A DNA stretch of 64,000 bases from an uncultured Steroidobacter sp. (lineage in GTDB: Bacteria; Pseudomonadota; Gammaproteobacteria; Steroidobacterales; Steroidobacteraceae), in the NCBI GenBank assembly GCA_964457865.1, contig CAYWHG010000001.1, positions 54,193 through 118,192 of the forward strand, in the 5' to 3' direction. Below are positions 19,355 to 61,364 of the stretch, in pieces. The position numbers and the translations under genes were made by a program. How positions within the stretch are numbered: the stretch's first letter is position 1; each line of letters opens with the position of its first letter. The notes beneath the pieces were generated by a model that saw nothing but the letters and a program-made list of their open reading frames with translations, did no database searches and was not told where the DNA came from.

Positions 19355-19404
19355 TATGAGAATGTCATTCCCATCTTGACAATGCTACGGTTGAGACAGA
19401 TGCT
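19355..19404 (+). promoter_or_regulatory. Operator palindrome plus sigma70-like promoter of the nicD-like gene
   Basis: ATGAGAATGTCATTCCCAT (19356-19374) immediately before TTGACA (19376-19381)-N17-GATGCT. The 32-bp block is duplicated, inverted, at 55023-55054. Confidence 0.8.
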
Positions 19405-19697: not shown

Positions 19698-20501
19698 TTG
19701 AAACTCATCAGGTTCATTCACGGCCACACCCTTCGCGCCAACAATATCCGGCAGCACTACCTGCGCTTCGGTGGCGAAGGACATCCGTTGATTCTCATAC
19801 CGGGCATCATGACGCCTGCCCCCATCTGGGATTTCGTCGGCGATCGCCTCGGTGCTGCTTACGATACATACGTCACCGACGTTCGCGGGCGCGGTCTTTC
19901 CGAGACGGGTGATGAACTGGACTACAGCCTGGATGCCTACGCCGACGACGTCGCAGGTCTTGCCGATGCACTCGGATTCAGGAAATACAGCATCGTCGGT
20001 CATTCCATGGGCGCACGCATCGCGCTGCGCACAGCAAGCAAGTACGGCGACCCGATCGATCAGATCGTGATGATCGACCCGCCGGTCAGTGGACCGGGCA
20101 GACGGCGTTATCCTGTCCCGCTGGATCGCGTCGTCGACCGGCTCGCGAAGGCCAGGCGCGGCGAGCTGTGGGAAGCCACCAAGGACGAGCCATTCTGGAG
20201 TGATCACTCCAAACGTGTGCGCGCAGAGTGGACCCATACATGCAATGAAGTCGCGGTGCTCACCACGCATCGCAACTTCCACGAGGAAGACATCTTTCCC
20301 GACTTCAACAAAACGAAAGTCCGCACCTCCCTCATGGTGGCCACGCGAGGCGGCACGATCGAGCAGGCGGACATTGAGGACATCAAGACACGCATGCCGT
20401 CGATCACGGTCGACCACGTCGAGGCAGGACACATGATTCCGTTCGAGAATGAGGACGGTTTCTTCGCCAGCCTGGGTAGATTGCTGGGCACGAAAATCTG
20501 A
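19698..20501 (+). CDS. nicD: N-formylmaleamate deformylase-like alpha/beta hydrolase
   Basis: ANNIRQHYLRFGG, DVRGRGLS, GHSMGAR, DPPVSGPGRRRYP, RAEWTHTC and AGHMIP closely follow recalled P. putida NicD; TTG start after GGAGGA. Confidence 0.85.
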   Translation: MKLIRFIHGHTLRANNIRQHYLRFGGEGHPLILIPGIMTPAPIWDFVGDRLGAAYDTYVTDVRGRGLSETGDELDYSLDAYADDVAGLADALGFRKYSIVGHSMGARIALRTASKYGDPIDQIVMIDPPVSGPGRRRYPVPLDRVVDRLAKARRGELWEATKDEPFWSDHSKRVRAEWTHTCNEVAVLTTHRNFHEEDIFPDFNKTKVRTSLMVATRGGTIEQADIEDIKTRMPSITVDHVEAGHMIPFENEDGFFASLGRLLGTKI

Positions 20502-20521: not shown

Positions 20522-21169
20522 ATGAGCGAGACAGTGAGTTCAATGAATCTTCTTGATTTCAGTGATGCAAGCGATCTGGCATTGCTGGTCTGCGACCTGC
20601 AGAACGACTTCCTGCACCCCGACGGGATATACGCAAAATCGGGCATCGCCGCAGCACACGTCAGCGCGGTCACGCCTCGTGTCCGGCGCGTTGCCGATGC
20701 GGTACGACACGCCGGCGGAGTGGTAGTCGGGACCATGTTTACTCTGGTACCAGGTCGCGCGGGCGAGCCGCTCGTTGCGGCGCATCTCAAGCAGATGCGT
20801 CCCTTCTTGGATGAAGGTCATTTCGCGCCGGGCTCATGGGGTCAGGCAATGCTCGACGAACTGGGCCCCTTCGATGCCACGGTGGAGAAGATTGCCTACT
20901 CGGCCTTCTATCAGACTCGGCTCGAATGGCTTCTGCGCCGGCTTGCGGTCACCCGACTGGCAATTGCGGGTATCGTCACCCAGGGCGGGGTTGCATCAAC
21001 GCTTCGTGATGCGGCTGTCCGCGACTACTCAATCATTCTTCTTGAAGACGGCTGTGCCGCTTTCGACAACTCAATGCATCAGGCGGCCGTAACATCGCTG
21101 AGCGGTGCAGCGACAGTAATGTCCTGTGAGGCGCTTGCGCAGGGCCTTGCAGCCGCCGCCAGAGATTAG
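20522..21169 (+). CDS. Isochorismatase-family hydrolase lacking the nucleophilic Cys
   Basis: CDLQNDF (Asp) and EKIAYSAF (Lys) present, but GIVTQGGVAST has Gly at the usual Cys position. Confidence 0.85.
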   Translation: MSETVSSMNLLDFSDASDLALLVCDLQNDFLHPDGIYAKSGIAAAHVSAVTPRVRRVADAVRHAGGVVVGTMFTLVPGRAGEPLVAAHLKQMRPFLDEGHFAPGSWGQAMLDELGPFDATVEKIAYSAFYQTRLEWLLRRLAVTRLAIAGIVTQGGVASTLRDAAVRDYSIILLEDGCAAFDNSMHQAAVTSLSGAATVMSCEALAQGLAAAARD

Positions 21170-21255
21170 GCGGATTTCGCCGTGCAGTGTTGGCGAACGG
21201 CGAGGATCGAGTAGTTCAGCCATGGGAAGTCGGAAAAAAATGTCCACACGGTTTT

Positions 21256-22122
21256 ATGACTAAACGGAATTCATCGATGGGCAGTGCTCAACTGAGTGTG
21301 GTTCCGACGGACGAGCAGCGGCCAGTCAAACAGACGGCCGTGAGCAAGGCACGTCGCAACGGGCCCCGCTCGGTCACGCGGCTGCTCAATGTGCTGCGGG
21401 TTCTCGCGCTCTCTGAAGAAAGTGTGAGCCTTGCTCAGCTCAGTCTTGCTACGCGGACCCCGAAGACGAGCCTGCTCGCGTTGCTGCGTACGCTTGTCGA
21501 TGCCGGGTATATCGTGCAGCGAGAAGCCGGATACATGCTCGGTGCCGAGGCATTTGCGCTCGGTTCTGTGATCATTGGACAGCGCCGGCTCGCGCAACTG
21601 GCTCGACCAGTGTTGCAGAGACTGGCGGAGCAGAGCGGCGAGACCATCCTGCTCGCTGAACTCTCTGCGGACTCGACTCATGCGATCTACATCGACAAGG
21701 TCGAGAGCACTCGCGCGATTCGCTTCATCGCAAGTGTGGGCGAGCGTCGACCTCTCTATGGCTCGGCCTGTGGTCGCGCCCTTCTTGCCTTCCAGGACGA
21801 CGCATTTCGCAAGAACTATCTCTCCGGGACCAGGTTCATTCCGCTGAATCCGAACAAGAAGATGATGAGTCGCGGCGAGTTGGAGGGCATCATCAAGGAC
21901 ATCCGGAAGAACTCGCTCGCGACGACCAACGAGGATGTGAACGAAGGGGTGGTTGGCTTCGGCTCGCCAATCTTCGGGCGTGATGGCGAGACCGTGGCGG
22001 CGATCGCAATCGGGGCGCCTGTTGTTCGTGGATTGCAGCAGGCCAAGGTGATGTCACGCCTGGTGAAGGACGGCGCCCGGGAGATTTCGCGGACTCTGGG
22101 ATACATCGAGAAGGATGCCTAG
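21256..22122 (+). CDS. IclR-family transcriptional regulator
   Basis: N-terminal HTH (RSVTRLLNVLRVL..LSLATRTPKTSLLALLRTL), SACGRALLA and GFGSPIF..AAIAIGAP; start uncertain. Confidence 0.9.
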   Translation: MTKRNSSMGSAQLSVVPTDEQRPVKQTAVSKARRNGPRSVTRLLNVLRVLALSEESVSLAQLSLATRTPKTSLLALLRTLVDAGYIVQREAGYMLGAEAFALGSVIIGQRRLAQLARPVLQRLAEQSGETILLAELSADSTHAIYIDKVESTRAIRFIASVGERRPLYGSACGRALLAFQDDAFRKNYLSGTRFIPLNPNKKMMSRGELEGIIKDIRKNSLATTNEDVNEGVVGFGSPIFGRDGETVAAIAIGAPVVRGLQQAKVMSRLVKDGAREISRTLGYIEKDA

Positions 22123-45825: not shown

Positions 45826-45864
45826 CGGGTTGGTACGACGCGCGGAACTTGTTGGGCAATCGCA

Positions 45865-48800: not shown

Positions 48801-49320
48801 GGGTCAGGAAAAAATCGCAGAGGCGGTGGCGAACAATCTGTTCAAGCTGATGGCGTACAAGGATGAGTACGAAGTGGGCAGGCTCTACGCGCAAACTGAT
48901 TTCCGCGAGACACTTGCGCGACAGTTCGATGGGGCGCCCCGGCTCACCTTCCATCTCGCGCCGCCGATATTCGCATCGGTCGACCCTGCAACGGGTCATC
49001 CGCGCAAGCGCGAATTCGGCGGGTGGATGATGCCGGTATTCAGTGGCCTTGCGAGACTGCGATTTCTGCGCGGCACGCTGTTCGATCCGTTTGGCTGGAC
49101 GGCTGAGCGACGTGCCGAGCGGCGCCTGATCGATGACTACGAGCGCAGCATGCTGGAGATCACATCCAGAATGACAGCCGAACAGTGTCCGCTGGTGCTG
49201 AAGTTCGCGAGCGTTCCGGATGCCATCCGGGGCTTCGGGCATGTCAAGGCAAGATCAATGGCGCTGGCCGAGAAGGAAGCGGCAAGGCTGCACGCTGAAA
49301 TGGCCGCACTGATCCCGTAG
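45865..49320 (+). CDS. Indolepyruvate:ferredoxin oxidoreductase family protein (fused alpha/beta)
   Basis: SGYRGSPLG, NEDLAATAVWG, FCPGCPHN, CEGCGDC..C..C Fe-S motif, GLAQKNGAV and YKDEYEV. Confidence 0.92.
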   Translation: MTLLPVSLEDKYRPDAQRIYLSGTQALVRLPLLQRDRDRRSGLNTAGFISGYRGSPLGMYDHALWRAQSHLKAHDITFVPGLNEDLAATAVWGTQQVGQSASSKVRGVFGIWYGKGPGVDRSLDALKHANAAGTSPYGGVLAIAGDDHGAQSSTLPHQSEQAFAAAMMPVLNPSSMQEYLDLGLYGFALSRYSGCWVGFKATSEIVECSASIVSDPERASVVVPTDFEMPSGGLGVRWPDSPLEKERRLFGPKMDAVAAFARANALDRIVLDAPTARLGIMTTGKAYLEVRQALTDLGIDDSMAVRIGLRLYKVAMVWPLEQSGVHRFADGLDEILVVEEKRGFLEEQLTRILYNMEARRRPSIVGKRDENGRMLLSSEGELTRTMVARALLTRLRRLGCHDAHLEQRLARLEAFDRNAASPSAGVQRTPFFCPGCPHNSSTKVPEGSRALAGIGCHGMAIYVPSRRTTTMSHMGGEGASWIGESPFTNEAHVFQNLGDGTYAHSGVLALRAAAAAGVNITYKILYNDAVAMTGGQPVEGQLSLAQIAQQVAAEGAKRIVVVTDAPAKYPANIFPRGVTIHHRRELDLVQRELREIKGLTVLLYDQTCAAELRRRRKRGREADPTRRVFINASVCEGCGDCSTASNCIAVQPLETELGRKRQIDQSQCNKDFSCVEGFCPSFVSIQGGKLRSAAEPVPLPAGLAESLPSPAVLNADSYNILVTGIGGTGVVTVGALVAMAAHLEGKGCSVLDVTGLAQKNGAVTSHIRITQTPGDVMAGRIPSGAADLILGCDMVVAASAASLSRVDGGRTRAIVNSDVQPTASFVMNPDIDLGADGKRDALRAALGEERIDFIDATRIATALLGDAIAANTFLLGFAYQKGAIPLTLASIQRAMELNNVSVELNKRAFLWGRLAAHDDAAVMDAASPRLRSKARTAQTLDELIARRAAFLAAYQNVAWAERYRRVVIAVRQHEQRIVPGQEKIAEAVANNLFKLMAYKDEYEVGRLYAQTDFRETLARQFDGAPRLTFHLAPPIFASVDPATGHPRKREFGGWMMPVFSGLARLRFLRGTLFDPFGWTAERRAERRLIDDYERSMLEITSRMTAEQCPLVLKFASVPDAIRGFGHVKARSMALAEKEAARLHAEMAALIP

Positions 49321-50609: not shown

Positions 50610-50636
50610 GATCGCATAGGTGAATGATATTCGCAT
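50610..50636. promoter_or_regulatory. Three-half-site operator between leuB-like (-) and SBP-3 (+)
   Basis: GATCGCAT-AGGTGAAT-GAT-ATTCGCAT; 50618-50636 matches the 19356 site at 15/19 (reverse complement). Confidence 0.6.
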
Positions 50637-50708
50637 TTGTAATTCGAGTGCCCGGCCGTTACGACACATGTCGCAAGTCGCTGCGACATCCTTTTGGGAG
50701 GAAGACGA

Positions 50709-51776
50709 ATGAGCCGAATCGGGTCCTTGTCAGCCGCGTTGTTGATGGTGGTAACGAGTAGCGCCATGGCGGATGCCAACGTGCTTCGGGTCGGAACGCC
50801 AACGCCGGCCAGCGTCTATTCGGCCACCCTCACTGCTGCTCTTGAACTGGGCTATTTCGCCGACGAAGGCATCGACCTGCAGTTGCAGCAATTTCCCACC
50901 ACCGTGCCGGTGATGCAGGCGGTCGCCAATGGTTCGATCGATGTCGGCGGCGGCGGCGTCTTTCCCCTGGTAGTCGCCAATCAACCTGGCAAGAATCACT
51001 TGCCGTTGAAGTTCTTCTACAACGCGATACGCAAGTTCGCGTTCGAGATTGTCGTACCTGCCGATAGCCATGCCCAACGTATCGGGGATCTCAAAGGCAG
51101 GAAGCTGGGCGTCCTGTCGTTGACCGCGCCGTATGCTCCGATCACCCGTGTCGTGTTGCGGGAGAATGGGTTGTCGCCCGACGACGTGCAGATCGTCGCT
51201 GTGGGCGAGAATCAGGGCGGTTTCGATCAGCTGATGCAGGGCAAGATCGACGCGTATGAGACGTTCATCGGCAACAGCGCACTGTTCGAAGCGGATGGCG
51301 GTCAACTGAAGCGACTGCCGTACAGCAAGCGGATCAACAACCTGCTGACCTACAGCTACTATGCCAGTGAGGAAACTCTGGCGAAGCGGCCGGCGCTGCT
51401 CGCAGGCTTCGGCCGTGGAGTAGCGAAGGGGGCGCTGACCTGCAATATTGCGCCTGAGTGGTGCGTGAGATCCGTGTGGAAGCTGTATCCCCATCTGCAG
51501 CCCGGCAAAGATGCTGAAGCTGGCGAGATGGCTCGCCAGGTGCGATTGCTGAAGACCAACCTGGCTGCGTATCTGGCGTTCCCCGAGGGCCAGCCCCGAC
51601 GGTTCGGCGAGTATCCGCAAGACGCGTTCAGGCAGTTGATCGACATCCTTCACGAAGGCGGCGAACTGCCCACGGCCGATATCGACGCCGATATGTTTTT
51701 CACCAATGCGCTCGTCAATCAGGTGAACGATTTCGACGTGGCTGAGGTCGAGGCAAGAGCTCGCCAGCTGCGATGA
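50709..51776 (+). CDS. ABC-type substrate-binding protein, NMT1/THI5/SsuA family (SBP-3, close paralog of SBP-1)
   Basis: Shares GGGGVFPLV, LSLTAPYA, DAYETFIGNSA, LKRLPYS and IAPEWC with SBP-1. Confidence 0.87.
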   Translation: MSRIGSLSAALLMVVTSSAMADANVLRVGTPTPASVYSATLTAALELGYFADEGIDLQLQQFPTTVPVMQAVANGSIDVGGGGVFPLVVANQPGKNHLPLKFFYNAIRKFAFEIVVPADSHAQRIGDLKGRKLGVLSLTAPYAPITRVVLRENGLSPDDVQIVAVGENQGGFDQLMQGKIDAYETFIGNSALFEADGGQLKRLPYSKRINNLLTYSYYASEETLAKRPALLAGFGRGVAKGALTCNIAPEWCVRSVWKLYPHLQPGKDAEAGEMARQVRLLKTNLAAYLAFPEGQPRRFGEYPQDAFRQLIDILHEGGELPTADIDADMFFTNALVNQVNDFDVAEVEARARQLR

Positions 51777-51907: not shown

Positions 51908-52387
51908 ATGGCAATGCAAATGAACGGTGAGGTGGATCTTCCGGCCACGCGCGAGATCGTGTGGGCCAGGCTCAACGATCCGGCTGTCCTGAAGGCCTGC
52001 ATTCCTGGATGCGAAGAGTTCGATGTCGTGTCGGAGACAGAGTTCGTTGCCGTGGCGACCAACAAGATCGGACCGATCAAGGCTCGCTTCAAAGGGCGTG
52101 TCCACCTGAGCGAGATGGATCCACCCGCCGGCTATCGTCTGGCTGGCGAAGGCGAGGGCGGTATTGCGGGCTTTGCAAAGATGAGCGCAGGCGTCACCCT
52201 GCGCGAAGGTGAGGCCGGCACGCTGCTGTGCTACGACGTGGATGCGCAGTTTGGCGGACGAATGGCACAGCTAGGCTCACGACTGGTGCAGAGTGCTGCG
52301 AAGAAGCTCGCCGATGACTTCTTCAATCGCTTCGCCACTGTCATCAGGGAGGGAAGTGTTGAGGCGCTTGTCAACGAGCAGGCCTGA
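51908..52387 (+). CDS. coxG: CoxG/SRPBCC family protein
   Basis: VWARLNDPAVLKACIPGCE, IGPIKARFKG and GGRMAQLGSRLV. Confidence 0.85.
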   Translation: MAMQMNGEVDLPATREIVWARLNDPAVLKACIPGCEEFDVVSETEFVAVATNKIGPIKARFKGRVHLSEMDPPAGYRLAGEGEGGIAGFAKMSAGVTLREGEAGTLLCYDVDAQFGGRMAQLGSRLVQSAAKKLADDFFNRFATVIREGSVEALVNEQA

Positions 52388-53359: not shown

Positions 53360-53670
53360 CGTCGGGCCGCCAGCCGCCAACTTTCACCAGGAAGTCCTTG
53401 ATCTATTTTCCGTTCGCCCTGAGCCAGTCGAAGGGTGAATTCCACGACGTTAACCCTGGATGGCTCGCGCCTTCTGAGAGAAATTCCGTGCATACCCGCC
53501 TTGTTCCTGATGGCAGACGGTGTCCTGCGAAAATTGGCAGCGATGATTTCTACAGGCATGCCGGCTTTCGCAAGGTCGCGCAGCTGACACAGTGCTTCGG
53601 AAGTCCACGCTTTCGCCGGCGAAGAGTCCAGGCTGCGAGCCATGTGTGCGAAGGAATCAAATGACCTCAT
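53356..53670 (-). CDS. Small hypothetical protein with a GcrA/Myb-like HTH pattern
   Basis: WTSEALCQLRDLAKAGMPVEIIAANFRRTPSAIRNKAGMHGISL; AGGA RBS upstream of ATG 53670. Confidence 0.55.
   Translation of the reverse strand: MRSFDSFAHMARSLDSSPAKAWTSEALCQLRDLAKAGMPVEIIAANFRRTPSAIRNKAGMHGISLRRREPSRVNVVEFTLRLAQGERKIDQGLPGESWRLAARR
53411..53439. repeat. REP-like palindromic element (single copy here)
   Basis: CGTTCGCCCTGAGCCAGTCGAAGGGTGAA forms a hairpin resembling the recalled CCGTTCGCCCTGAGCyTGTCGAAGGG repeat type. Confidence 0.4.
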
Positions 53671-53774
53671 CGATGTTCTTTCCTGGAATGTCCAATGCAA
53701 TTCTCAATCTGACTCGTTAAGGCTATTGCTCGCGACACCATGTTTCCCGCCGCAGGTTTGCCGCCAGATTGGAT

Positions 53775-54971
53775 CTAGAGGTCGACCGACGTGGCGTCGT
53801 AGTTGTAGAGCCAGTCGCGCAGGTCCAGCTGTTTTTCCGATTCCCGGTCGATGTACTGGCTGGCCTTCTGCGGATCTGCGAGATCCGGATGATGCAGCCG
53901 GTGTTGATTCGCCCCGGAGGCCTCCACGATGGAGGTCGTGCGCGGGATTCGCAGTTGCTCGTAACGCTGCAATGCGTGGGGCAGGTCGCTCGCGTACTTC
54001 TGCATGCAGCGAGCCAGCACATAGCCATCTTCGATGGCCATGTTGGCGCCGAAACCGAGATAGGGCAGGGTGGGATGGCATGCATCGCCCAGCAGGGTGA
54101 CCCGTCCACTTGACCAGTGCGGCATCGGCGGCCGCAGAAACAGTGCCCACTTGTAGGGGACATCGATGTTCCGGATCAGGGTCTGGATCTGCTCGTGCCA
54201 GCCGGAGAAATCAGCGCTGATCTCTTCGAGCGTTCCCTTCTCGATCCATGACTCCACCTGCCAGTCGCTGCGTTCGATGTGTCCGACGATATTCACCAGT
54301 TCGCCGCGCCGGATCGGATAGCAGACGAAGTGGCCGTTCGGCGCCATCCAGTTCTGTGTTCCGACCAGACGGTTCTTCTCGGGCAGGCTATCCATCGACA
54401 CGATGCCGCGCCAGGAGATGCAGCCGGTAAATGTCGCCGGTGTCTCGCCGAACAACTGACGGCGGATCCGCGAATGCAGGCCATCGGCGCCGATCAGTGC
54501 GTCGCCAGAGAACGTTCTGCCATCCTCGAGGACGACGGTCGCCGAGCTTTCCGACTGTTCGAAGCCCTTGACCCGCGCACTCAGATGAATCGCGTCGGGC
54601 TTCCTGCTGCGGACGGCCTTCACGAGGATGTCGTGCAGGTCCGCGCGATGAATATAGATGTTCGCGAATCCGTAATGCTCGATGAGGTAGGAGGTCAGGG
54701 TCGGCGTGGAGGCGCGATACCCCGTATTCCACACCAGCATTTCTCTGCCCTGCGGCAGTACCCACACGGACTCGATCTGTTCCTTCAGACCCAGCGCGAA
54801 CAGGACCCGCAGTCCGGTCGGGCTGATCTGAACGCCCGCGCCGACCTCGCGCAGGTTCGCGGTCTGTTCGAACACATCGACATCCATTCCCTTGTCGAGG
54901 CAGGCCAGCGCCGCGGTCAGGCCGCCGATGCCCGCGCCTGCGATCAAGACGTGCTTTTTCCTGGTGCTCAT
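53775..54971 (-). CDS. Group A FAD-dependent monooxygenase (NicC/salicylate hydroxylase family)
   Basis: IAGAGIGGL, GAGVQISP, IGADGLHSRIR and LLGDACHP; start re-assigned to ATG 54971. Confidence 0.9.
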   Translation of the reverse strand: MSTRKKHVLIAGAGIGGLTAALACLDKGMDVDVFEQTANLREVGAGVQISPTGLRVLFALGLKEQIESVWVLPQGREMLVWNTGYRASTPTLTSYLIEHYGFANIYIHRADLHDILVKAVRSRKPDAIHLSARVKGFEQSESSATVVLEDGRTFSGDALIGADGLHSRIRRQLFGETPATFTGCISWRGIVSMDSLPEKNRLVGTQNWMAPNGHFVCYPIRRGELVNIVGHIERSDWQVESWIEKGTLEEISADFSGWHEQIQTLIRNIDVPYKWALFLRPPMPHWSSGRVTLLGDACHPTLPYLGFGANMAIEDGYVLARCMQKYASDLPHALQRYEQLRIPRTTSIVEASGANQHRLHHPDLADPQKASQYIDRESEKQLDLRDWLYNYDATSVDL

Positions 54972-55003
54972 GCCACTTGTCGGATGCCAATGTGAGGGAG
55001 GCA

Positions 55004-55054
55004 AGCATCCGGTGCCCGTGCGAGCATTGTCAAGATGGGAATGTCATTCTCATA
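55004..55054 (-). promoter_or_regulatory. Operator plus promoter of the monooxygenase; near-identical to the nicD promoter
   Basis: ATGGGAATGTCATTCTCAT (55035-55053). On the minus strand TTGACA-N18-GATGCT. 31/32 identity with the reverse complement of 19355-19386. Confidence 0.8.
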
Positions 55055-55121
55055 ACCGTACGCGCTATACTACGGGTCAGTTGGATCTGTCCTCGCAGCC
55101 TGAGCGCGACAGGAGCATTTC

Positions 55122-57521
55122 GTGGCCCACCTCGCATCCTTCGATTCCACAGCGCCGGTCCTCGGCCAGCCCGTTCCGCGCCGCGAGGATGAGCGCCTGC
55201 TGACCGGGCGCGGTCGCTTCGTCGATGACCTGAAGCTGCCGGGGATGGTGCACATGGCGGTGGTGCGCAGTCCCGTGGCGCACGCGCGGATACGCGCAAT
55301 CAATGTTGATGCAGCGCGATCGCTGCCTGGTGTGCTCGCGGTGATCAGTGCGCAGGACCTGGAGGGTCATGCACACCACATGCCCGTCTCGGATACGTGG
55401 GTGATGCCGGGGTACAACCGCTATCTGCAATGGCCGATCGCGCGGGATGTCGTGCGTTTTGTCGGTGAGCCCATCGTGGCGGTGGCGGCGGAAAACCGCA
55501 GCATTGCAGAGGATGCATGCGGCCTGGTCGATATCGACTTCGAAATCCTGGATCCCGTGACCAACATCGATGAGGCATTGACCGACAGGGTGGTGCTGCA
55601 TGAGTCGGCGGGAACGAACCTGGCCTGCCACTATGTCGTCGGACGCGGCGATGCGGACAAGGCATTCGAGAATCCGCACTACACGCGCAAGGAAATATTC
55701 CGCGTTCATCGGCATACCGGGATGGCGCTCGAGACTCGCGGCTACGTCGCGCAGTGGGATCCGCTGGCCAGGAAGATGACCTGCTGGGGGGCGAACAAAC
55801 GGCCGTGGAACACGCGCGATACGCTGGCGTCCATGCTGAAGCTTGAGCGTGAGGACATCACCCTCATCGAGAACGACACGGGGGGCAACTTCGGCACCCG
55901 CGGACATTTCTATCCAGAGAACCTCATGGTGGCGTTCCTCGCGATGCGTCTGGAACGGCCCGTGAAGTATGTTGAAGATCGTCGCGAGAACATGATGGCG
56001 ACGAATCATTCGCGCGAGGTGAGTTGCGAACTGGAGATCGCTGTCGCGAAGAACGGAAGAATCGAAGGTCTGCGCGCGCGCGTCTTCTGCGATCTCGGCG
56101 CCTATTGCACCGGTGGCGGTTCCGCCGTCGTACCGGCAAAGACGGTGCAGTTCATACCTGGCCCGTATCACATCGACAACTACAAGTGCGAACTGAGCGT
56201 GCTCATCACGAACAAGACGCCTGTCGGCGCGTATCGTGGACCGGGGCGCTATGAGGCGGGATTCTGCATCGAGCGGTTGCTCGACATGGTGGCGAAGGAT
56301 CTGGACCTGGATCCGGTCGAGTTGCGCAGGAACAATCTCATTCGCACCGAGCAGATGCCTTACAACGGCGGCGTGCTCGTGCCGTATCTCGGCGAGAGTC
56401 CTTACGACACGGGCGACTATCTGCAGACGTTCAATCGCGCGCTCGAACTGATCGATTACGAAGCCATCAAGGCGAAGTCCGGAAAGCTGATCGACGGCAA
56501 GTTCCACGGGGTCGCCGCGAGTTGCTACGTCGACTCGACCGGCATGGGGCCTTCCGAGGAAGCGCGCATCGTCGTCAATGCGCCCGACGACATCGAGCTG
56601 TATGTCGGAACCTCCGCAAACGGCCAGGGTGTGGAGACCACGATGGCGCAGGTGGCGGCCGACCTGCTCGGCGTTCCCTATGAACTGATCAAGGTGTTTG
56701 CAGGCAGCACCCACTACGTCGAGAACGGCAACGGTCACGGTCATAGCCGTGCGGCGGTGCAGGGCGGCAGTGCGGTGTTCATCGCGACGAACAATCTGAT
56801 TAAGCAGATGCTGGAGGCGGCAGCGCTGCGCTACAACGAACCGGTCGAGCATCTGGAGTACCGTCGCGGCGCCATACATCGCACGACGGATGATGTGCCG
56901 TTGGCCGCATTCGACGATTGCGTGAACGCCATCGTCGGGGAACTGGAGCGTCCTGAGCTGCTGCGCGCGGCAGGCCGCTACGTCAACAGCAAGCTGACCT
57001 ACAGCTACGGAGCGCAGGCAGCCCATGTCACGGTGGATCCGGAGACCTCGATCGTCGAGGTAGTGCGCTTCCTGACGGTCGAAGATGTCGGTCGCGCACT
57101 CAATCCCCTCATCGTTCACGGTCAGTCGATCGGTGCTTCCGTGCAGGGACTGAGCGGCACCTTCCTGGACGAATTTGTCTACGACAGTGCAGGGCAACTG
57201 CTTACAGGCAGCTTTGCCGACTATCTGGTGGCGACGGCCACGGATTTTCCACGGGTCGAAGCCGAGACCTTGCAGAACGCCCCGTCGAAATCGAACCCGC
57301 TGGGCGCCAAGGGTGCAGGCGAAGGCGCCATGTCGACGACCGGGGCCGTGCTCGCAAATGCGGTATCCAATGCATTGGCGTCCCTGAACGTGCAGATCCA
57401 CGATCTGCCGATGTCGCCGAGCAATCTGTCGCGGCTGATCCGCGCGGCCAGGGCAGGGCGTCCGGCGCGGCCGGCGACCGGCGACGATGCGCGATTTGGC
57501 ATACGCCACGAGTCCGTCTGA
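55122..57521 (+). CDS. Xanthine dehydrogenase-family molybdopterin hydroxylase large subunit
   Basis: RREDERLLTGRGRFVDD, GGNFGTRG, AYRGPGR, GQGVET and GAKGAGEG; GTG start after AGGAG. Confidence 0.92.
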   Translation: MAHLASFDSTAPVLGQPVPRREDERLLTGRGRFVDDLKLPGMVHMAVVRSPVAHARIRAINVDAARSLPGVLAVISAQDLEGHAHHMPVSDTWVMPGYNRYLQWPIARDVVRFVGEPIVAVAAENRSIAEDACGLVDIDFEILDPVTNIDEALTDRVVLHESAGTNLACHYVVGRGDADKAFENPHYTRKEIFRVHRHTGMALETRGYVAQWDPLARKMTCWGANKRPWNTRDTLASMLKLEREDITLIENDTGGNFGTRGHFYPENLMVAFLAMRLERPVKYVEDRRENMMATNHSREVSCELEIAVAKNGRIEGLRARVFCDLGAYCTGGGSAVVPAKTVQFIPGPYHIDNYKCELSVLITNKTPVGAYRGPGRYEAGFCIERLLDMVAKDLDLDPVELRRNNLIRTEQMPYNGGVLVPYLGESPYDTGDYLQTFNRALELIDYEAIKAKSGKLIDGKFHGVAASCYVDSTGMGPSEEARIVVNAPDDIELYVGTSANGQGVETTMAQVAADLLGVPYELIKVFAGSTHYVENGNGHGHSRAAVQGGSAVFIATNNLIKQMLEAAALRYNEPVEHLEYRRGAIHRTTDDVPLAAFDDCVNAIVGELERPELLRAAGRYVNSKLTYSYGAQAAHVTVDPETSIVEVVRFLTVEDVGRALNPLIVHGQSIGASVQGLSGTFLDEFVYDSAGQLLTGSFADYLVATATDFPRVEAETLQNAPSKSNPLGAKGAGEGAMSTTGAVLANAVSNALASLNVQIHDLPMSPSNLSRLIRAARAGRPARPATGDDARFGIRHESV

Positions 57522-57571
57522 GGTTCGTGATGCGGCGCACTGCGGATTTCGGCACGTCAGTCCGTATTTGC

Positions 57572-57603
57572 TTGACTCACCAATAACAGAATGTCATTTT
57601 CAT
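57572..57603 (+). promoter_or_regulatory. -35 (TTGACT) and operator upstream of the nicX-like gene
   Basis: AACAGAATGTCATTTTCAT (57585-57603), 15/19 to the 19356 site. Confidence 0.6.
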
Positions 57604-57702
57604 ACGCGCACGCACTGGAACTGTGTCGTCTGCCCTGAATTGCAGGTGCGCCGCACCGGAAGGGTGCCGCCTCGCCCAGGCGACGGGCTAATCGATGGGG
57701 TA

Positions 57703-58761
57703 ATGATCTTGGCCAACATGATCGATGTGGAAATGCTTCGCGTATTCACCGCAGAGCTTGAACTCTGCAAGGTGAAGCCGGACGAAACGGTTGCCGTGCT
57801 GAGTGCGAGCGGGACGCCGAACGGCTATGCGCAGGCCTTCATGGTTGCGGCGGGCAGTCTTGGTGCCACGACCTTTCACATCGAGGTCCCGGATCATGCG
57901 ACAGCGAATCGGGCGGGTGTGTACGGCAAGACGCCGCTCGCGGGAAATCGCGCAGCCATCGATTCATTGAAGTCGGCAGATCTGGTGATCGATCTGATGG
58001 GGCTGTTGTTCTCGCCGGAGCAGGCGGAAATTCAGAGTGCCGGTACGCGCATTCTGCGAGTCGGCGAACCGATGCATGTCCTCAAGCAGATGTTTCCGAC
58101 TGCGGAGCAGCGGCGTCGCGTCGAGGCGGGCGCCGAGATGATGCGCGCCGCACGGGAACTGCGCGTGACTTCCGAGGCCGGCACCGACGTGCGATACAGG
58201 CTGGGGCAGTATCCGGTCGTTACGCAGTACGGGTACACCGATACGCCGGGCCGCTGGGATCACTTCCCTTCCGCGTTTCTGTTTACGCAGGGCAACGATG
58301 ACGGGGTCGAGGGGACCGTAGTGGTTCAGCCGGGCGACATCCTCTGCGCCTTCAAAAAGTACGTACAGGACCCGGTCCGCCTGACCATCAAGGCGGGACG
58401 CGTCGCCGAGATCGATGGTCCCGGAATGGATGCTGCGTTGCTTCGCGACTACATCACGAGCTTCAACGATCCACGCGCATATGCGATCTCGCATATCGGC
58501 TGGGGGATGCATGAGCGCGCAACGTGGTACCACATGCTCGCGACGACCAGACTGCGTGAGGAGAGAATCATGAATGCGCTCTCCTTCTATGGAAACGTGC
58601 TGTTCTCCACCGGTCCCAACACAGAGGTGGGCGGAACCAACGATACGGCGTGTCACATCGATATTCCGATGCGCAAGTGCAGCCTGTTTCTCGATGGGCG
58701 GCAGATCGTGGCGGCGGGCAAGGTTGTCGTGCCGGAGCTGAAGGCGGCACTCGATTCGTAG
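57703..58761 (+). CDS. nicX: 2,5-dihydroxypyridine 5,6-dioxygenase-like non-heme Fe dioxygenase
   Basis: LGQYP..YGY.D.PGRWDH, SHIGWG, FYGNVLFSTGPNTEVGG and CHIDIP match recalled P. putida NicX; start 57703 or 57718. Confidence 0.87.
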   Translation: MILANMIDVEMLRVFTAELELCKVKPDETVAVLSASGTPNGYAQAFMVAAGSLGATTFHIEVPDHATANRAGVYGKTPLAGNRAAIDSLKSADLVIDLMGLLFSPEQAEIQSAGTRILRVGEPMHVLKQMFPTAEQRRRVEAGAEMMRAARELRVTSEAGTDVRYRLGQYPVVTQYGYTDTPGRWDHFPSAFLFTQGNDDGVEGTVVVQPGDILCAFKKYVQDPVRLTIKAGRVAEIDGPGMDAALLRDYITSFNDPRAYAISHIGWGMHERATWYHMLATTRLREERIMNALSFYGNVLFSTGPNTEVGGTNDTACHIDIPMRKCSLFLDGRQIVAAGKVVVPELKAALDS

Positions 58762-58770
58762 GATTCACCA

Positions 58771-59670
58771 GTGCGCATGACGGGTCTTGAAGAGCTCGTG
58801 TCGATACTGGACATCGAGGTCGTCGGTCAGAACCAGTTTCGTGGCGCCCAGCCAGGTGAAGAACGCCGTCGCGTTTTTGGCGGGCAGGTAGTTGCGCAGG
58901 CACTGATGGCGGCCTATCGAACGGTCGAGTCGCGTTCGGTTCATTCCCTGCAGTGCTATTTCGTGCGCGGAGGCAATCCGTCGATACCCATCGACTATGA
59001 GGTCGAGATCCTGCGCGACGGTCGGAGTTTCTCGATTCGTCGGGTGCTCGCGAAGCAAGAGGCTAAGGCGATCTTTTGCATGAGTTGCTCGTTCCACGCC
59101 AGCGAAGCTGGCATGGCGCATCAGCCATGTATGCCGGACGTGCCGGGGCCAGAGCAATTGCCCGACTTGCGGGAGCTGCCGGGTTCGATACACGGTGAGA
59201 TACCGCCGGTGCTGGCCCGTCTGCTGCGGGAGGATCGGCCGATTGAATTCAAGCCGGTTGACCTTGATGGGATGATGACCCGGACCATGAAAGACGAAGT
59301 GCGACACTTCTGGATCCGTGCGAAGGGGAAGCTGCCGGATGTACCGTCGGTGCATCATGCCGTGCTGGCGTACGCCTCCGACATGTCTCTGCTCGATGTT
59401 GCCTTGCACAAGCACGGTCACGGGTTGTTCGATGGATCGCACGAGACCGCCAGCCTCGATCATGTGATGTGGTTTCACCGCGCTTTCCGCGCGGATGAAT
59501 GGGTTCTGTATTCGCAGGAGAGCCCCAGCCGGGCCTTCTCGCGCGGCTTCACGCGCGGTGCGATTTTCTCGCGCAGCGGCGACTTGCTGGTGTCGGTGAG
59601 CCAGGAAGGATTGTTGCGGGAGAACGCCGCAGCCTTGCGCATGCAAACGCCCCCGATGGGAGTGAACTGA
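58771..59670 (+). CDS. tesB: Acyl-CoA thioesterase II
   Basis: RVFGGQVVAQAL, LRDGRSFS, LAYASDMSLL and ASLDHVMWFHR. Confidence 0.92.
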   Translation: MRMTGLEELVSILDIEVVGQNQFRGAQPGEERRRVFGGQVVAQALMAAYRTVESRSVHSLQCYFVRGGNPSIPIDYEVEILRDGRSFSIRRVLAKQEAKAIFCMSCSFHASEAGMAHQPCMPDVPGPEQLPDLRELPGSIHGEIPPVLARLLREDRPIEFKPVDLDGMMTRTMKDEVRHFWIRAKGKLPDVPSVHHAVLAYASDMSLLDVALHKHGHGLFDGSHETASLDHVMWFHRAFRADEWVLYSQESPSRAFSRGFTRGAIFSRSGDLLVSVSQEGLLRENAAALRMQTPPMGVN

Positions 59671-61364
59671 TGCGTAATGCGGCCCCCCGACCCTGGGTAG
59701 ACGCCTTTCCCCGTGCTGCTCGCTGGGATGCGCCCATCGAAGCGCTGTCACTGCCTGAACTGCTCGATCGTGCCGTCAGCCGCTCCAGCGACCGGCCGGC
59801 ATTGACCTATGGCTCGACGACGCTGACGTACCGGCAGCTTGCCGGGCTCGTCGATGCCCTGGCTACGGGCTTTCGACAGATCGGCATTCGGCAAGGCGAG
59901 CACGTCGCTCTGCTGCTTCCAAACACGCTTTACCATCCCATCAGTTTCTTCGCGCTGATGAAGCTGGGTGCGCGCGTCGTGCATTTGAGCCCGATGGATG
60001 CGCCACGGGAGCTTGCCTACAAGGTCAAGGACTCGGAAGTAAGGACGCTGATCGCCACCAACACGCCCAGTGTGCTGGCGGCGGCAGACGCACTTCTGGC
60101 CCAGGGTGCCATCGAGCGCATGGTGGTCGGTGACGAGGAGCATTGGGGCGCCGGTCAATCCACCGCGCCGATTCGCATTGCCACGGGCGTCGTACCACTG
60201 CTCGATCTGCTGGTGGATACCGCAGACAGGCAGTGGCCGGTGTTGTCGCCGGACGATCTCGCAGTGATCCAGTACACCGGCGGTACGACAGGTCTGCCGA
60301 AGGGCGCGATGCTCACGCATGCCAATCTCAGCGCTGCGGTGTCGATGTATCACGCCGTAACGGCCGATGCGGATTTCCGACCCGGTGAAGAGCGTGTCAT
60401 CTGCGTGGCGCCGCTGTTTCACATCTTCGGATTGTCCGGAATCATGCTGGCGCACCTCGTGCACGGCAATGAGATCGTGCTGTTTCCTCGCTTCGATGCA
60501 GAGACCATCGTGCACGAGATTGAAGTGAACAGGGCGAGCATCATGCCGGGCGTCCCGACCATGTGGATTGCCATCGCCAATCTTCCTGACATCCACAAGC
60601 GCGACCTGAGTTCGCTGAAGGATGCCCGTTCGGGCGGCGCGCCGATGCCGAGCGATGTTCAGAAGCGACTCGAGCAGAAGATCGGTCGGCGGATTCTCGG
60701 CGGTTGGGGCATGACGGAGCTGTCACCCGCCGGCACGCGGCTGGTGCCTGATCAGCCGACCCCGCCCGGACTGATCGGTATTCCCTACGCGGGAATCGAC
60801 ATGCGAATCGTCTCGCTCGAGGATCCGCTGCGTATATTGCCCGCCGGAGAAGTTGGCGAGATTGCCGTCAGTGGGCCGAACGTGTTCAAGGGATACTGGA
60901 ACAAGCCCGAGGCGACAGCCGAAGCGTTCGCGGGAGGCTACTTCCTGACGGGCGACATTGGCTGCATGGACGAGACGGGTCAGTTCACGATCGTTGATCG
61001 AAAGAAGAACATGATCATTTCGTCCGGGTTCAATGTGTATCCCGCGTCCATCGAAAACGCGCTCTACGAGCATCCCGATGTGCGCGAGGTGATCGTCATC
61101 GGCGTGCCGGATCCGTATCGGGGTCAGGCAGCGAAGGCGTTCATTACGCTCAAGGCCGGTGCGCGTGAGATGTCGCTCGATGAGCTGCGGGAGTTTCTGA
61201 AGGAACGGATCGGGCGTCATGAGATGCCTGCGGCCGTCGAGTATCGGGACAGCCTGCCGCGCAGTCCGGCGGGCAAGCTGCTGGCGAAGGTGCTGCTCGA
61301 TGAGGAGAAGGCGAACGTGCAGGCGAAAGCGCTGTTGAACCCCGCCGCAACCAGGAGCGCCTAG
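59670..61364 (+). CDS. pimA: Dicarboxylate/long-chain acyl-CoA ligase (PimA-like)
   Basis: RWDAPI, HPISFF..GARVVHLSPMD, QYTGGTTGLPKGAMLTH, GWGMTE and DRKKNMIISSGFNVYP. Confidence 0.78.
   Translation: MRNAAPRPWVDAFPRAARWDAPIEALSLPELLDRAVSRSSDRPALTYGSTTLTYRQLAGLVDALATGFRQIGIRQGEHVALLLPNTLYHPISFFALMKLGARVVHLSPMDAPRELAYKVKDSEVRTLIATNTPSVLAAADALLAQGAIERMVVGDEEHWGAGQSTAPIRIATGVVPLLDLLVDTADRQWPVLSPDDLAVIQYTGGTTGLPKGAMLTHANLSAAVSMYHAVTADADFRPGEERVICVAPLFHIFGLSGIMLAHLVHGNEIVLFPRFDAETIVHEIEVNRASIMPGVPTMWIAIANLPDIHKRDLSSLKDARSGGAPMPSDVQKRLEQKIGRRILGGWGMTELSPAGTRLVPDQPTPPGLIGIPYAGIDMRIVSLEDPLRILPAGEVGEIAVSGPNVFKGYWNKPEATAEAFAGGYFLTGDIGCMDETGQFTIVDRKKNMIISSGFNVYPASIENALYEHPDVREVIVIGVPDPYRGQAAKAFITLKAGAREMSLDELREFLKERIGRHEMPAAVEYRDSLPRSPAGKLLAKVLLDEEKANVQAKALLNPAATRSA

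What the first reader, a model, noticed from the sequence alone, without database searches (positions are those of the whole stretch)
53775..58761. Upper pathway: flavin monooxygenase, Mo hydroxylase and NicX-like dioxygenase for an unknown pyridine
Seen: a monooxygenase divergent from a Mo large subunit, followed by nicX-like, with operators at 55035 and 57585. Known: nicotinate, picolinate and nicotine routes use Mo hydroxylation, flavin hydroxylation to a 2,5-dihydroxypyridine, then NicX ring opening. Inference: the same logic for a different substrate, completed by the 14-21 kb module.
Basis: partly seen in the sequence, partly recalled or inferred. Interest (0 to 1): 0.7.

Follow-up and report, generated by a model that had tools for sequence, protein, structure and literature searches.

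The report
Pyridine-ring breakdown genes missing electron subunits
This soil bacterium carries a second, stripped-down copy of a gene set for breaking open pyridine rings. The copy keeps only the substrate-recognising enzymes and probably borrows its electron-transfer and transport parts from a complete sister gene set 21 kb away.

Summary
Window 53775-58761 encodes three proteins:
- a group-A flavin monooxygenase on the minus strand (MO1);
- a divergently transcribed molybdenum-hydroxylase large subunit (MoL1);
- a NicX-type 2,5-dihydroxypyridine dioxygenase (NicX1).

Palindromic operators lie at 55035 and 57585. Both are conserved in Peristeroidobacter soli.

- MoL1 is the only one of about 10 large-subunit genes in this genome with no iron-sulfur or FAD partner gene of its own.
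- A complete paralogous cluster lies 21 kb downstream on the same contig. It holds a large subunit, ABC ATPase and permease, NicX, a binding protein, FAD and FeS subunits, an isochorismatase-family hydrolase and a monooxygenase.
- The regulon also carries orphan solute-binding proteins. The genome has only one matching ABC permease, and it sits in that second cluster.

Trees show the window set is a separate lineage of a widespread cluster type, not a recent duplication. It is under strong purifying selection (dN/dS 0.07-0.10). None of the three enzymes groups with the canonical Pseudomonas putida nicotinate enzymes.

Most likely this is a specificity module for a nicotinate-like pyridine that plugs into shared electron-transfer and transport parts. 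The substrate remains unknown. This is a new variant of a known kind, of moderate interest.

The parts
53775..54971 (-). MO1: group-A FAD monooxygenase of the decarboxylative/ipso-hydroxylase subfamily, 398 aa
   Evidence: Pfam FAD_binding_3. PDB relatives: tropone 2-monooxygenase 4e-67, vanillate 1-hydroxylase, NicC 2e-56. 34% identical to P. putida NicC. At the NicC active-site positions it reads Q47, T202, H211, V213, Y215, I227, V228, G229, Y302. 87% identical to the P. soli orthologue, dN/dS 0.07.
55035..55053 (.). Operator 1, ATGGGAATGTCATTCTCAT: a perfect match to the regulon palindrome, in the 150-bp MO1|MoL1 divergent intergenic region, directly after a TTGTCA hexamer
   Evidence: One of only two exact genome matches. 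Conserved in P. soli at L012 9913 and in metagenome contig L017 at 4686.
55122..57521 (+). MoL1: molybdenum hydroxylase large (MCD-binding, catalytic) subunit, 799 aa, with no FeS or FAD subunit gene of its own
   Evidence: Three Pfam domains. PDB relatives 7dqx KdhL 3e-134, CoxL, Qor. The catalytic Glu (GAGEGA) and a non-CODH loop AYRGPGRYE are kept. No FeS or FAD subunit gene in the window. It is the only large subunit in the genome without an adjacent FeS subunit. dN/dS 0.08 against P. soli.
57585..57603 (.). Operator 2, AACAGAATGTCATTTTCAT (3 mismatches), in the 196-bp MoL1-NicX1 spacer, after a TTGACT hexamer
   Evidence: The same element (2 mismatches, with the same flanking TTGACT) lies upstream of NicX in P. 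soli at L012 14008, although an ALDH gene is inserted between MoL and NicX there.
57718..58761 (+). NicX1: 2,5-dihydroxypyridine 5,6-dioxygenase homologue (alternative start 57703)
   Evidence: 7cn3 at 1e-94, 48% identity. Fe ligands H265, S302, H318 and D320 are kept; H189 is kept; E177 is Gln and H105 is Phe; Tyr76 and Val175 are specific to this lineage. dN/dS 0.10.
58771..59670 (+). TesB-like acyl-CoA thioesterase II, 10 bp after NicX1: first gene of a co-oriented CoA-chemistry block that follows NicX in both species
   Evidence: NCBIfam TesB 269-282 bits, below both curated cut-offs (292.85 and 481). Same gene order after NicX in P. soli: thioesterase, CoA ligase, SDR, MaoC x2, ICL-family lyase, LeuCD-like hydratase.
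59499..61364 (+). PimA-like dicarboxylate/acyl-CoA ligase (true start probably near 59680)
   Evidence: Pfam AMP-binding. NCBIfam PimA 622 bits, below the 705 cut-off. 74% identical to the P. soli neighbour.
50618..50636 (.). Regulon operator (2 mismatches) ahead of the SBP-CoxG-EamA genes
50694..51776 (+). Orphan NMT1-type solute-binding protein, with no permease or ATPase in the window
   Evidence: Pfam NMT1. 53% identical to the binding protein of cluster 2. The genome has only one matching permease, and it is in cluster 2.
51908..52387 (+). CoxG/SRPBCC protein, a possible fourth component of the hydroxylase
   Evidence: Pfam COXG 3.8e-33. Homologues (37-52% identical) sit in related complete clusters. 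A separate SRPBCC subunit is essential in 3-hydroxypyridine dehydrogenase HpdA.
19356..19374 (.). Second exact copy of the operator, in inverted orientation
19722..20501 (+). NicD-like alpha/beta hydrolase (N-formylmaleamate deformylase candidate) of the same cluster lineage, displaced 34 kb from MO1
   Evidence: Pfam Abhydrolase. 62-74% identical to the hydrolase adjacent to the monooxygenase in L013-L018.
21130..22122 (+). IclR-family regulator (open-frame limits), the probable binder of the operator
   Evidence: Pfam HTH_IclR and IclR_C. 67% identical to the IclR in metagenome cluster L017. A 72% paralogue lies beside cluster 2.

Best explanation
The region is the catalytic core of an IclR-controlled regulon for aerobic breakdown of a nicotinate-like (probably 3-substituted) pyridine.

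Proposed route:
1. MoL1 hydroxylates the ring carbon next to nitrogen.
2. MO1, a flavin enzyme of the decarboxylative/ipso-hydroxylating subfamily, replaces the substituent para to that hydroxyl with OH. This gives 2,5-dihydroxypyridine or a substituted form of it.
3. NicX1 opens the ring between C5 and C6.
4. The NicD-like hydrolase at about 19.7 kb and the other operator-bearing operons take the product onward.

The unusual point is that this gene set holds only specificity-determining parts: the catalytic large subunit, the monooxygenase, the dioxygenase, binding proteins and its own regulator. It lacks the generic parts. I infer that MoL1 assembles with the FAD (M) and 2x[2Fe-2S] (S) subunits of the complete paralogous cluster at contig C1 129999-141443. 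I infer likewise that the orphan binding proteins dock on that cluster's single ABC permease and ATPase.

Shown here:
- the gene identities;
- intact catalytic and metal-binding residues;
- operator reality and conservation;
- absence of partner genes for MoL1;
- the paralogous cluster;
- conservation of the layout and purifying selection in two species.

Inferred, not shown:
- the reaction order;
- that the substrate is a pyridine;
- subunit and transporter sharing;
- that the substrate differs from that of cluster 2.
For: Gene identities.

Intact catalytic residues:
- MoL1 keeps the catalytic Glu and a hydroxylase-type loop.
- NicX1 keeps all four Fe ligands and His189.
- MO1 keeps the His211 and Tyr215 equivalents.

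Missing partners:
- No FeS or FAD subunit gene in the window.
- The genome has 11 matches to the large-subunit family and 9 FeS subunits. Two of the 11 are probably one gene split across contigs, giving about 10 large-subunit genes. There are only 3 FAD subunits. Every FeS gene sits beside its own large-subunit gene, which leaves MoL1 as the sole orphan.

Paralogous complete cluster on the same contig: large subunit 65%, NicX 73% and monooxygenase 58% identical, plus M, S, ABC ATPase, permease, binding protein and an isochorismatase-family hydrolase.

Transport parts: four paralogous NMT1 binding proteins but one matching permease.

Conservation in P. soli:
- Both clusters lie on one contig.
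- There are only 2 FAD subunits in 9.4 Mb, one of them in cluster 2.
- There is one close permease and four intact binding proteins on the island contig.

Selection and history:
- dN/dS is 0.07-0.10 for MoL1, MO1 and NicX1, the same as for the cluster-2 genes.
- The large-subunit, monooxygenase and NicX trees are congruent. They place the window set with P. soli type 1 and a metagenome contig (L017) that also shows MoL-NicX-SBP followed by a transposase rather than M and S.
- The next branch out (L015) is a complete cluster with its own M and S.

Rarity of the layout: among 48 NicX loci of named genomes with a large-subunit homologue within 10 kb, 43 also have M and S, and 3 more are cut by contig ends.

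Operators.

Active-site differences between the paralogues:
- Monooxygenase position 47 is Gln versus Arg, and position 202 is Thr versus Gly.
- NicX position 76 is Tyr versus Val/Ile, and position 175 is Val versus Met.
- MoL1 has Pro202Ala two residues before the substrate-site Glu, and Val729Ala near the catalytic Glu.
Against: - No biochemical data exist for any member of this large-subunit, monooxygenase or NicX clade.
- Cluster 2 lacks the operator and has its own IclR paralogue. Sharing M/S and the permease would therefore need both regulons to be on together.
- The genome is a 96%-complete, 376-contig assembly, so an unassembled FeS/FAD pair cannot be fully excluded. P. soli shows the same lack of a nearby pair.
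- MoL1 and MoL2 are only 64-65% identical (64% by MAFFT over 799 residues; 65% by tblastn). No region stands out as a conserved docking surface.
- The lineage-specific substitutions are few and conservative. The His/Tyr pair kept in MO1 is common to the whole subfamily, so it says nothing specific about pyridines.
- No RNA data exist for this organism.
Confidence: 0.5

Rival explanations
1. Redundant second copy for the same substrate. Clusters 1 and 2 would both degrade the same compound, most simply nicotinate via 6-hydroxynicotinate. Cluster 1 would then be a horizontally acquired duplicate that has shed dispensable genes, and the retained paralogues only raise dosage or give a differently regulated route.
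For: - All three proteins fall in one well-supported clade with the complete clusters.
- Most active-site positions are identical between the paralogues.
- Gln at the NicC His47 position is compatible with 6-hydroxynicotinate turnover in HxnX.
- The complete cluster type carries every gene of a nicotinate-to-maleate route except the isomerase.
Against: - The two lineages are old (58-73% identity) and have been kept side by side in two species under equally strong purifying selection.
- They have separate regulators and different operators.
- They differ at monooxygenase position 47 (Gln versus Arg) and at NicX pocket positions 76 and 175.
- Only cluster 1 is embedded in a CoA-ligase / beta-oxidation-like / ICL-family lyase / LeuCD-like hydratase operon, conserved in both species.
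Confidence: 0.22
2. MoL1 does not work as a hydroxylase here. It would be a relic kept for another reason, or a non-redox binding protein. The functional unit would then be MO1 plus NicX1, acting on an already hydroxylated pyridine acid taken up from outside, for example 6-hydroxynicotinate or 5-hydroxypicolinate.
For: - There are no dedicated FeS/FAD partners.
- NicX1 has its own operator and promoter-like element, separate from MoL1.
- Known routes such as HpaM plus HpaX need no Mo enzyme (the 5-hydroxypicolinate paper listed; its abstract only was read).
Against: - The 799-codon frame is intact and has dN/dS 0.08 over dS of about 1.3.
- The catalytic Glu and the cofactor-binding domains are fully conserved.
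- It sits directly behind the strongest operator of the regulon.
- Maturation genes (XdhC, and CobS/CobT-like AAA+ and VWA proteins) lie between the two clusters in both species.
Confidence: 0.15
3. The pathway acts on a non-heterocyclic aromatic compound. MO1 would be a phenolic-acid hydroxylase (of the 3-hydroxybenzoate or vanillate type), MoL1 an aldehyde or aromatic oxidoreductase, and the NicX homologue would cleave a hydroquinone-like ring.
For: - MO1's best NCBIfam model is 3-hydroxybenzoate 6-monooxygenase. It scores 288 bits, below the 459 cut-off.
- Its best PDB hits act on carbocyclic substrates.
- The window also holds homoprotocatechuate/LigAB-type aromatic genes at 2-10 kb.
Against: - NicX is reported to act only on 2,5-dihydroxypyridine. 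NicX1 keeps its Fe site and His189.
- NicX-family loci are overwhelmingly linked to NicD-like and isochorismatase-family (NicF-like) amide-handling genes. Those genes make sense only for a nitrogen-containing ring.
- MoL1's nearest solved relatives hydroxylate pyridine or quinoline rings.
Confidence: 0.05

Closest known systems
Aerobic nicotinate (nic) pathway of Pseudomonas putida KT2440 and Bordetella: NicAB, NicC, NicX, NicD, NicF, NicE
   Same: - The chemical logic is the same: Mo hydroxylation next to N, flavin-dependent decarboxylative hydroxylation to 2,5-dihydroxypyridine, and Fe(II) NicX ring cleavage.
- NicD-like and isochorismatase-family genes are present in the regulon.
   Different: - The hydroxylase is of the CoxL/Kdh/Qor three-subunit (LMS) class, not NicA plus cytochrome-c-bearing NicB.
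- MO1 is only 34% identical to NicC and lacks His47 and His302.
- NicX1 is 48% identical to NicX, with Glu177 replaced by Gln and His105 by Phe.
- The regulator is IclR-type rather than MarR-type NicR/BpsR.
- No maleate isomerase was found in the Pfam scans of the window ORFs.
- The large subunit has no partner genes of its own.
Three- and four-component pyridine Mo hydroxylases: KdhLMS and NdhLMS of Paenarthrobacter pAO1, SpmABC of P. putida S16, PicA of Alcaligenes faecalis, HpdA1-4 of Ensifer adhaerens
   Same: - MoL1 belongs to the same large-subunit class. Its best solved match is KdhL.
- A CoxG/SRPBCC gene lies nearby, as in HpdA, SpmC and PicA3.
- Recombinant KdhL alone binds Mo and the CTP-derived cofactor. 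A stand-alone large subunit is therefore a viable protein.
   Different: - All of those enzymes are encoded with their own FeS and FAD subunits.
- Here the partner genes exist only in the paralogous cluster 21-26 kb away.
- MoL1 also lacks the active-site Gln of CoxL and Qor (WGANKRP), as does KdhL.
The widespread uncharacterised complete cluster type found in Ferrovibrio, in metagenomes, in P. soli cluster 2 and in this genome's cluster 2: large subunit, ABC ATPase, permease, (2-hydroxyacid dehydrogenase), NicX, NMT1 binding protein, M, S, isochorismatase, plus monooxygenase, NicD and IclR
   Same: MoL1, MO1, NicX1, the NicD-like hydrolase and the IclR regulator are all members of this cluster family, at 60-76% identity and with congruent trees.
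   Different: - The window lineage has lost M, S, the ABC ATPase and the permease.
- It is split into two blocks 34 kb apart that are tied together by one operator.
- It is fused to a CoA-ligase / thioesterase / hydratase / ICL-family lyase operon.
ABC importers with several binding proteins sharing one membrane complex, for example HisJ and LAO with HisQMP (recalled from general knowledge, not tested here)
   Same: There are four paralogous binding proteins and one cognate permease and ATPase.
   Different: In this genome the same one-to-many pattern appears to extend to a redox enzyme: two catalytic large subunits and one FeS/FAD pair.

Membership tests
Xanthine dehydrogenase / CODH-family Mo hydroxylase, large subunit | Ald_Xan_dh_C, MoCoBD_1 and MoCoBD_2 domain architecture | tested here: met
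   Pfam E-values 1e-27, 2e-67 and 2e-59.
Xanthine dehydrogenase / CODH-family Mo hydroxylase, large subunit | Catalytic glutamate in the C-terminal G-x-G-E motif | tested here: met
   GAKGAGEGA aligns with the Qor, Kdh and CoxL KG-x-GE motif.
Xanthine dehydrogenase / CODH-family Mo hydroxylase, large subunit | Encoded together with its own 2x[2Fe-2S] small subunit and FAD medium subunit | tested here: not met
   None in the 64-kb window. MoL1 is the only large subunit in the genome without an adjacent small subunit. The same holds within 10 kb either side in P. soli.
Aerobic CO dehydrogenase (form I CoxL) | Active-site loop VAYRCSFR with the Cu-binding cysteine | tested here: not met
   The loop reads AYRGPGRYE. 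NCBIfam CODH models score far below their cut-offs.
NicC (6-hydroxynicotinate 3-monooxygenase) | Group-A flavin monooxygenase fold with the His211 and Tyr215 substrate-binding pair | tested here: met
   FAD_binding_3. His and Tyr align. The same pair also occurs in carbocyclic-substrate relatives, so it is not diagnostic.
NicC (6-hydroxynicotinate 3-monooxygenase) | His47 and the other active-site residues (Cys202, Met213, Val227, Thr228, Gly229, His302), and orthologue-level similarity | tested here: not met
   Those positions read Gln, Thr, Val, Ile, Val, Gly and Tyr. Identity is 34%. P. putida NicC is a distant long branch in the tree. No NCBIfam equivalog reaches its cut-off.
NicX (2,5-dihydroxypyridine 5,6-dioxygenase) | Fe(II) ligands His265, Ser302, His318 and Asp320 | tested here: met
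   Invariant in alignment A1 and in all 88 homologues compared except three with Ala at position 302.
NicX (2,5-dihydroxypyridine 5,6-dioxygenase) | Substrate hydrogen-bond network His105, Glu177 and His189 | tested here: inconclusive
   His189 is kept. Glu177 is Gln throughout the MoL1/MoL2-linked clade. His105 is Phe, as in nearly all homologues, and the H105F variant is reported active.
NicX (2,5-dihydroxypyridine 5,6-dioxygenase) | Cleaves 2,5-dihydroxypyridine to N-formylmaleamate | not testable with these tools
   Needs an enzyme assay.
IclR-type operator regulon | Palindromic operator repeated at several promoters near an IclR gene and conserved in relatives | tested here: met
   Five sites in the window against about 0.3 expected. 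Conserved in P. soli and L017. An IclR gene lies at 21130. Binding itself was not tested.

The most novel reading that the evidence does not exclude
A molybdenum hydroxylase organised as one chassis with several specificity modules. A catalytic large subunit would have given up its own FeS and FAD subunits for good, and would exchange with a paralogous large subunit on a single shared electron-transfer pair. In the same island, several orphan binding proteins would share one ABC permease in parallel. The stripped set would open a second, possibly alkyl- or otherwise substituted, pyridine to the same downstream machinery. Substituted maleate products would then go to the co-transcribed LeuCD-like hydratase, ICL-family lyase and CoA / beta-oxidation genes rather than to a maleate isomerase.
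Probability: 0.3. Interest if true: 0.65.

Novelty: new variant of a known kind. Interest (0 to 1): 0.5.

Why it matters
Mo hydroxylases of the xanthine dehydrogenase family are treated as fixed complexes of large, medium and small subunits, each encoded as a unit. A conserved, selected large subunit with no partners, beside a paralogous complete enzyme, would be genomic evidence for swapping of catalytic subunits on a common electron-transfer module. That would be a cheap evolutionary route to new N-heterocycle specificities, and a design idea for biocatalytic regioselective pyridine hydroxylation.

The finding also marks a large and entirely uncharacterised clade of large-subunit / monooxygenase / NicX clusters. 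The clade is distinct from the textbook nic, pic, hpa, 3hpd and nicotine systems, and its substrates are unknown. A cultured species that carries both clusters, Peristeroidobacter soli, makes the questions testable.

Tried and rejected
- Strict sigma-70 promoter scan of 53500-59000: no hit. No promoter claim is made beyond the -35-like hexamers beside the operators.
- Search for RNA or other sequencing runs: only DNA metagenomes hold the stretch, so there are no expression data.
- tblastn of MO1 against plasmids: the best hits are 52% identical and generically annotated, with no characterised relative.
- Literature searches for characterised relatives or for shared Mo-hydroxylase subunits: they returned only the known pic, 3hpd, nic and nicotine systems.
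- Sliding identity between MoL1 and MoL2, looking for a conserved docking surface: flat at 0.48-0.78, uninformative.
- Search of 80 genomes of the same family for close MoL1 or MoL2 homologues: none (best 38%), so no extra comparators.
- Earlier-findings look-up by sequence: nothing.
- Idea that the Tat-HiPIP and triheme cytochrome c at 32.6-34.3 kb is MoL1's missing electron outlet: considered and set aside. MoL1's N-terminus shows no twin-arginine motif by eye (no predictor was run). An earlier agent tied those genes to the DUF1592/DUF1552 cassette. The idea was not tested.
- Idea that MoL1 and MoL2 are a recent in-genome duplication: rejected by the trees.
- My first statement that M and S always accompany a large subunit near NicX was too strong. 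A recount gave 43 of 48 loci, 3 cut by contig ends, and 2 genuine exceptions in Candidatus Binatia MAGs.

Full report
**1. What is at the coordinates**

ORF listing and family scans confirm three genes.
- MO1, 53775-54971 (-). The gene call in the public collection starts at 54971 and gives 398 aa (P0122). It is a group-A flavin monooxygenase (FAD_binding_3).
- MoL1, 55122-57521 (+), 799 aa. It has the three domains of a molybdenum-hydroxylase large subunit.
- NicX1, 57718 or 57703 to 58761 (+). It aligns end to end with P. putida NicX (7cn3, E = 1e-94, 48% identity).

MO1's best solved relatives are tropone 2-monooxygenase, vanillate 1-hydroxylase, 4-hydroxybenzoate 1-hydroxylase and NicC. 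These are the decarboxylative/ipso-hydroxylating branch. MoL1's best are the KdhL subunit of 6-hydroxypseudooxynicotine dehydrogenase, a mycobacterial CoxL and quinoline 2-oxidoreductase.

**2. The operators**

The 19-bp palindrome ATGnGAATGnCATTCnCAT matches exactly at only two places in the 5.3-Mb genome, window 19356 and 55035. At up to 3 mismatches, five of 30 genome hits fall in this 64-kb window: 19356, 34663, 50618, 55035 and 57585. All five are intergenic or upstream of genes.

In Peristeroidobacter soli the same element lies between the orthologous monooxygenase and large-subunit genes, with 0 mismatches. It lies again just upstream of NicX, with 2 mismatches, even though an aldehyde dehydrogenase gene is inserted between MoL and NicX there. 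A strict sigma-70 scan gave nothing.

**3.

Pfam scans of the large open reading frames across the window (about 45 frames chosen by third-position GC content) found no [2Fe-2S] small subunit and no FAD medium subunit.

Whole-genome family searches gave these counts:
- 11 matches to the large-subunit family, two of which are probably one gene split between contigs C22 and C312, so about 10 genes;
- 9 small subunits, each next to its own large subunit;
- only 3 FAD subunits.

MoL1 is the sole large subunit with no partner.

tblastn of the three proteins against the genome revealed a paralogous set on the same contig, starting 21 kb downstream of MoL1. The large subunit is 65%, NicX 73% and the monooxygenase 58% identical. 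Read out, that cluster 2 (contig C1 129999-141443) runs:
MoL2, ABC ATPase, permease, NicX2, NMT1 binding protein, FAD subunit, FeS subunit, isochorismatase-family hydrolase, MO2, amidase.
XdhC and CobS/CobT-like maturation genes lie just upstream.

**4. Conservation and selection**

P. soli (GCA_004138485, contig RYEV01000011) carries both clusters side by side, in the same order.
- Its type-1 cluster is MO(-) | MoL, ALDH, NicX, thioesterase, CoA ligase, SDR, MaoC x2, ICL-family lyase, LeuCD-like hydratase. It has no M or S within 10 kb.
- Its 9.4-Mb genome has only two FAD subunits, one of which is cluster 2's.

Orthologue pairs give dN/dS of 0.08 for MoL1, 0.07 for MO1 and 0.10 for NicX1, at dS of about 1.1-1.3. 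These values are indistinguishable from the cluster-2 genes. The lone large subunit is therefore a maintained protein, not debris. Its catalytic Glu and hydroxylase-type loop are intact.

**5. Origin**

The trees of the large subunit, the monooxygenase and NicX are congruent.
- The window genes group with P. soli type 1 and with metagenome contigs L017 and L018. On those contigs the order is IclR, isochorismatase, NicD, MO | MoL, NicX, SBP, followed by an IS630-like transposase rather than M and S.
- The next branch out (L015) is a complete cluster with its own ABC genes, M and S.
- MoL2, MO2 and NicX2 sit in a different sub-branch, with P. soli type 2.

Cluster 1 is therefore a second lineage of a widespread, uncharacterised complete cluster type. 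It has been reduced, and in this genome split. Its NicD-like hydrolase (62-74% identical to the one beside the monooxygenase elsewhere), a neighbouring isochorismatase-family gene and its IclR now lie at 19.7-22 kb, held in the regulon by the same operator.

Among 48 NicX loci of named genomes with a large-subunit homologue within 10 kb:
- 43 also have M and S;
- 3 are cut by contig ends;
- 2 (Candidatus Binatia MAGs) lack them.

None of 80 sampled genomes of the same family has a close homologue. The whole region behaves as an acquired island.

**6. The same pattern in transport**

The genome has four paralogous NMT1-type binding proteins, all on this contig: window 10662, 34566 and 50694, plus the one in cluster 2. 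They are 39-56% identical to each other and 47-53% to the cluster-2 protein.

Only one permease matches the cluster-2 permease, and it lies in cluster 2 with its adjacent ATPase. Two of the orphan binding-protein genes are preceded by regulon operators.

P. soli repeats the pattern: four intact binding proteins on the island contig and one close permease.

Taken together, the regulon that includes the finding holds a large subunit, a monooxygenase, a dioxygenase, binding proteins and a regulator. The FeS/FAD pair and the ABC membrane complex occur once, in cluster 2. This is the main argument for the shared-chassis reading. It is inference from gene content, not a demonstrated interaction.

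**7. Does the substrate differ?**

Against canonical enzymes:
- MO1 is 34% identical to P. putida NicC. It keeps His211 and Tyr215, but has Gln for His47 and Tyr for His302. The His/Tyr pair is shared by the carbocyclic-substrate relatives. Fungal HxnX, a true 6-hydroxynicotinate monooxygenase, also has Gln at position 47. These residues therefore neither prove nor exclude 6-hydroxynicotinate.
- NicX1 keeps all Fe ligands and His189. Glu177 is Gln in the whole MoL1/MoL2-linked clade. His105 is Phe in nearly all homologues, and the H105F variant is reported active.

Between the paralogues there are pocket differences:
- monooxygenase position 47 Gln versus Arg, and position 202 Thr versus Gly;
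- NicX position 76 Tyr versus Val/Ile, and position 175 Val versus Met;
- six MoL1-lineage substitutions at otherwise conserved sites, including Pro202Ala two residues before the substrate-site Glu and Val729Ala four residues before the catalytic motif.

Cluster 2 has its own IclR paralogue (72% identical) and lacks the operator. This is consistent with a different substrate or effector, but it is not proof.

**8. Context that may hint at the substrate (speculative)**

In both species NicX1 is followed within 10-12 bp by a thioesterase. Then come a PimA-like CoA ligase, an SDR, MaoC hydratases, an ICL/PEP-mutase-family lyase and a LeuCD-like hydratase.

The aldehyde dehydrogenase that sits between MoL and NicX in P. 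soli is here at 44344 (74% identical). It lies in a conserved block with an MFS_2 transporter, a 2OG-Fe(II) oxygenase and a carboxylesterase.

An aconitase-family hydratase with an ICL-family lyase recalls the dimethylmaleate hydratase and dimethylmalate lyase pair of anaerobic nicotinate fermentation. That comparison is from my own knowledge and was not tested here. It would suit substituted maleates, and the CoA genes would suit an acid released by the lyase or a side chain. I rate this at about 15%.

**9. Verdict**

- The feature is a new variant of a known kind of pathway.
- Its unusual aspect is the conserved partner-less large subunit and the one-to-many layout of specificity parts to shared parts.
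- The substrate is unknown, and subunit sharing is untested.

Noticed in passing
window 10662-11756, 34566-35909 and 50694-51776, plus contig C1 135419-136453 (outside the window): There are four paralogous NMT1-type solute-binding proteins on one contig, but only one matching ABC permease and adjacent ATPase in the whole genome, and those are in cluster 2. P. soli shows the same ratio, plus a decayed fifth binding-protein copy with stop codons.
   Followed up: partly
contig C1 147132-147968 (about 29 kb beyond the window end): A second IclR regulator, 72% identical to the one at window 21130, lies near cluster 2. The cluster-2 promoter region lacks the regulon palindrome and instead carries two GAATAT repeats.
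   Followed up: partly
contig C1 124524-128663 (outside the window); P. soli L019 4287-8229: CobS/CobT-like AAA+ and VWA genes and an XdhC gene sit between the two clusters in both species. They are probably Mo-cofactor insertion or maturation factors serving both large subunits.
   Followed up: no
L017 9597-9920 and L018 7213-7536: The closest metagenome relatives of the window cluster end in an IS630-like transposase fragment directly after MoL-NicX-SBP. This suggests that loss of the FeS/FAD genes went with mobile-element activity.
   Followed up: partly
L046 and L047 (Candidatus Binatia MAGs): A large-subunit homologue (36% identical) lies next to NicX with no detectable FeS or FAD subunit within 10 kb. 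This may be an independent case of a partner-less large subunit.
   Followed up: no
window 39418-49320: The block of MFS_2 transporter, 2OG-Fe(II) oxygenase, type-B carboxylesterase, aldehyde dehydrogenase and a fused 2-oxoacid:ferredoxin oxidoreductase-like protein is conserved in P. soli, where it abuts the monooxygenase gene. It could be a peripheral funnel (ester hydrolysis, demethylation or hydroxylation, aldehyde oxidation) feeding the pyridine pathway.
   Followed up: partly
window 55122-57521, residues about 221-227: The active-site Gln conserved in CoxL and Qor is absent from MoL1 and its whole clade (WGANKRP). It is also absent from KdhL.
   Followed up: partly
window 63425-64000 and contig C1 118413-120568: A second LeuCD-like hydratase pair follows the ICL-family lyase just past the window end, in addition to the pair at window 15-17 kb. 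It is only 28% identical to that pair.
   Followed up: no
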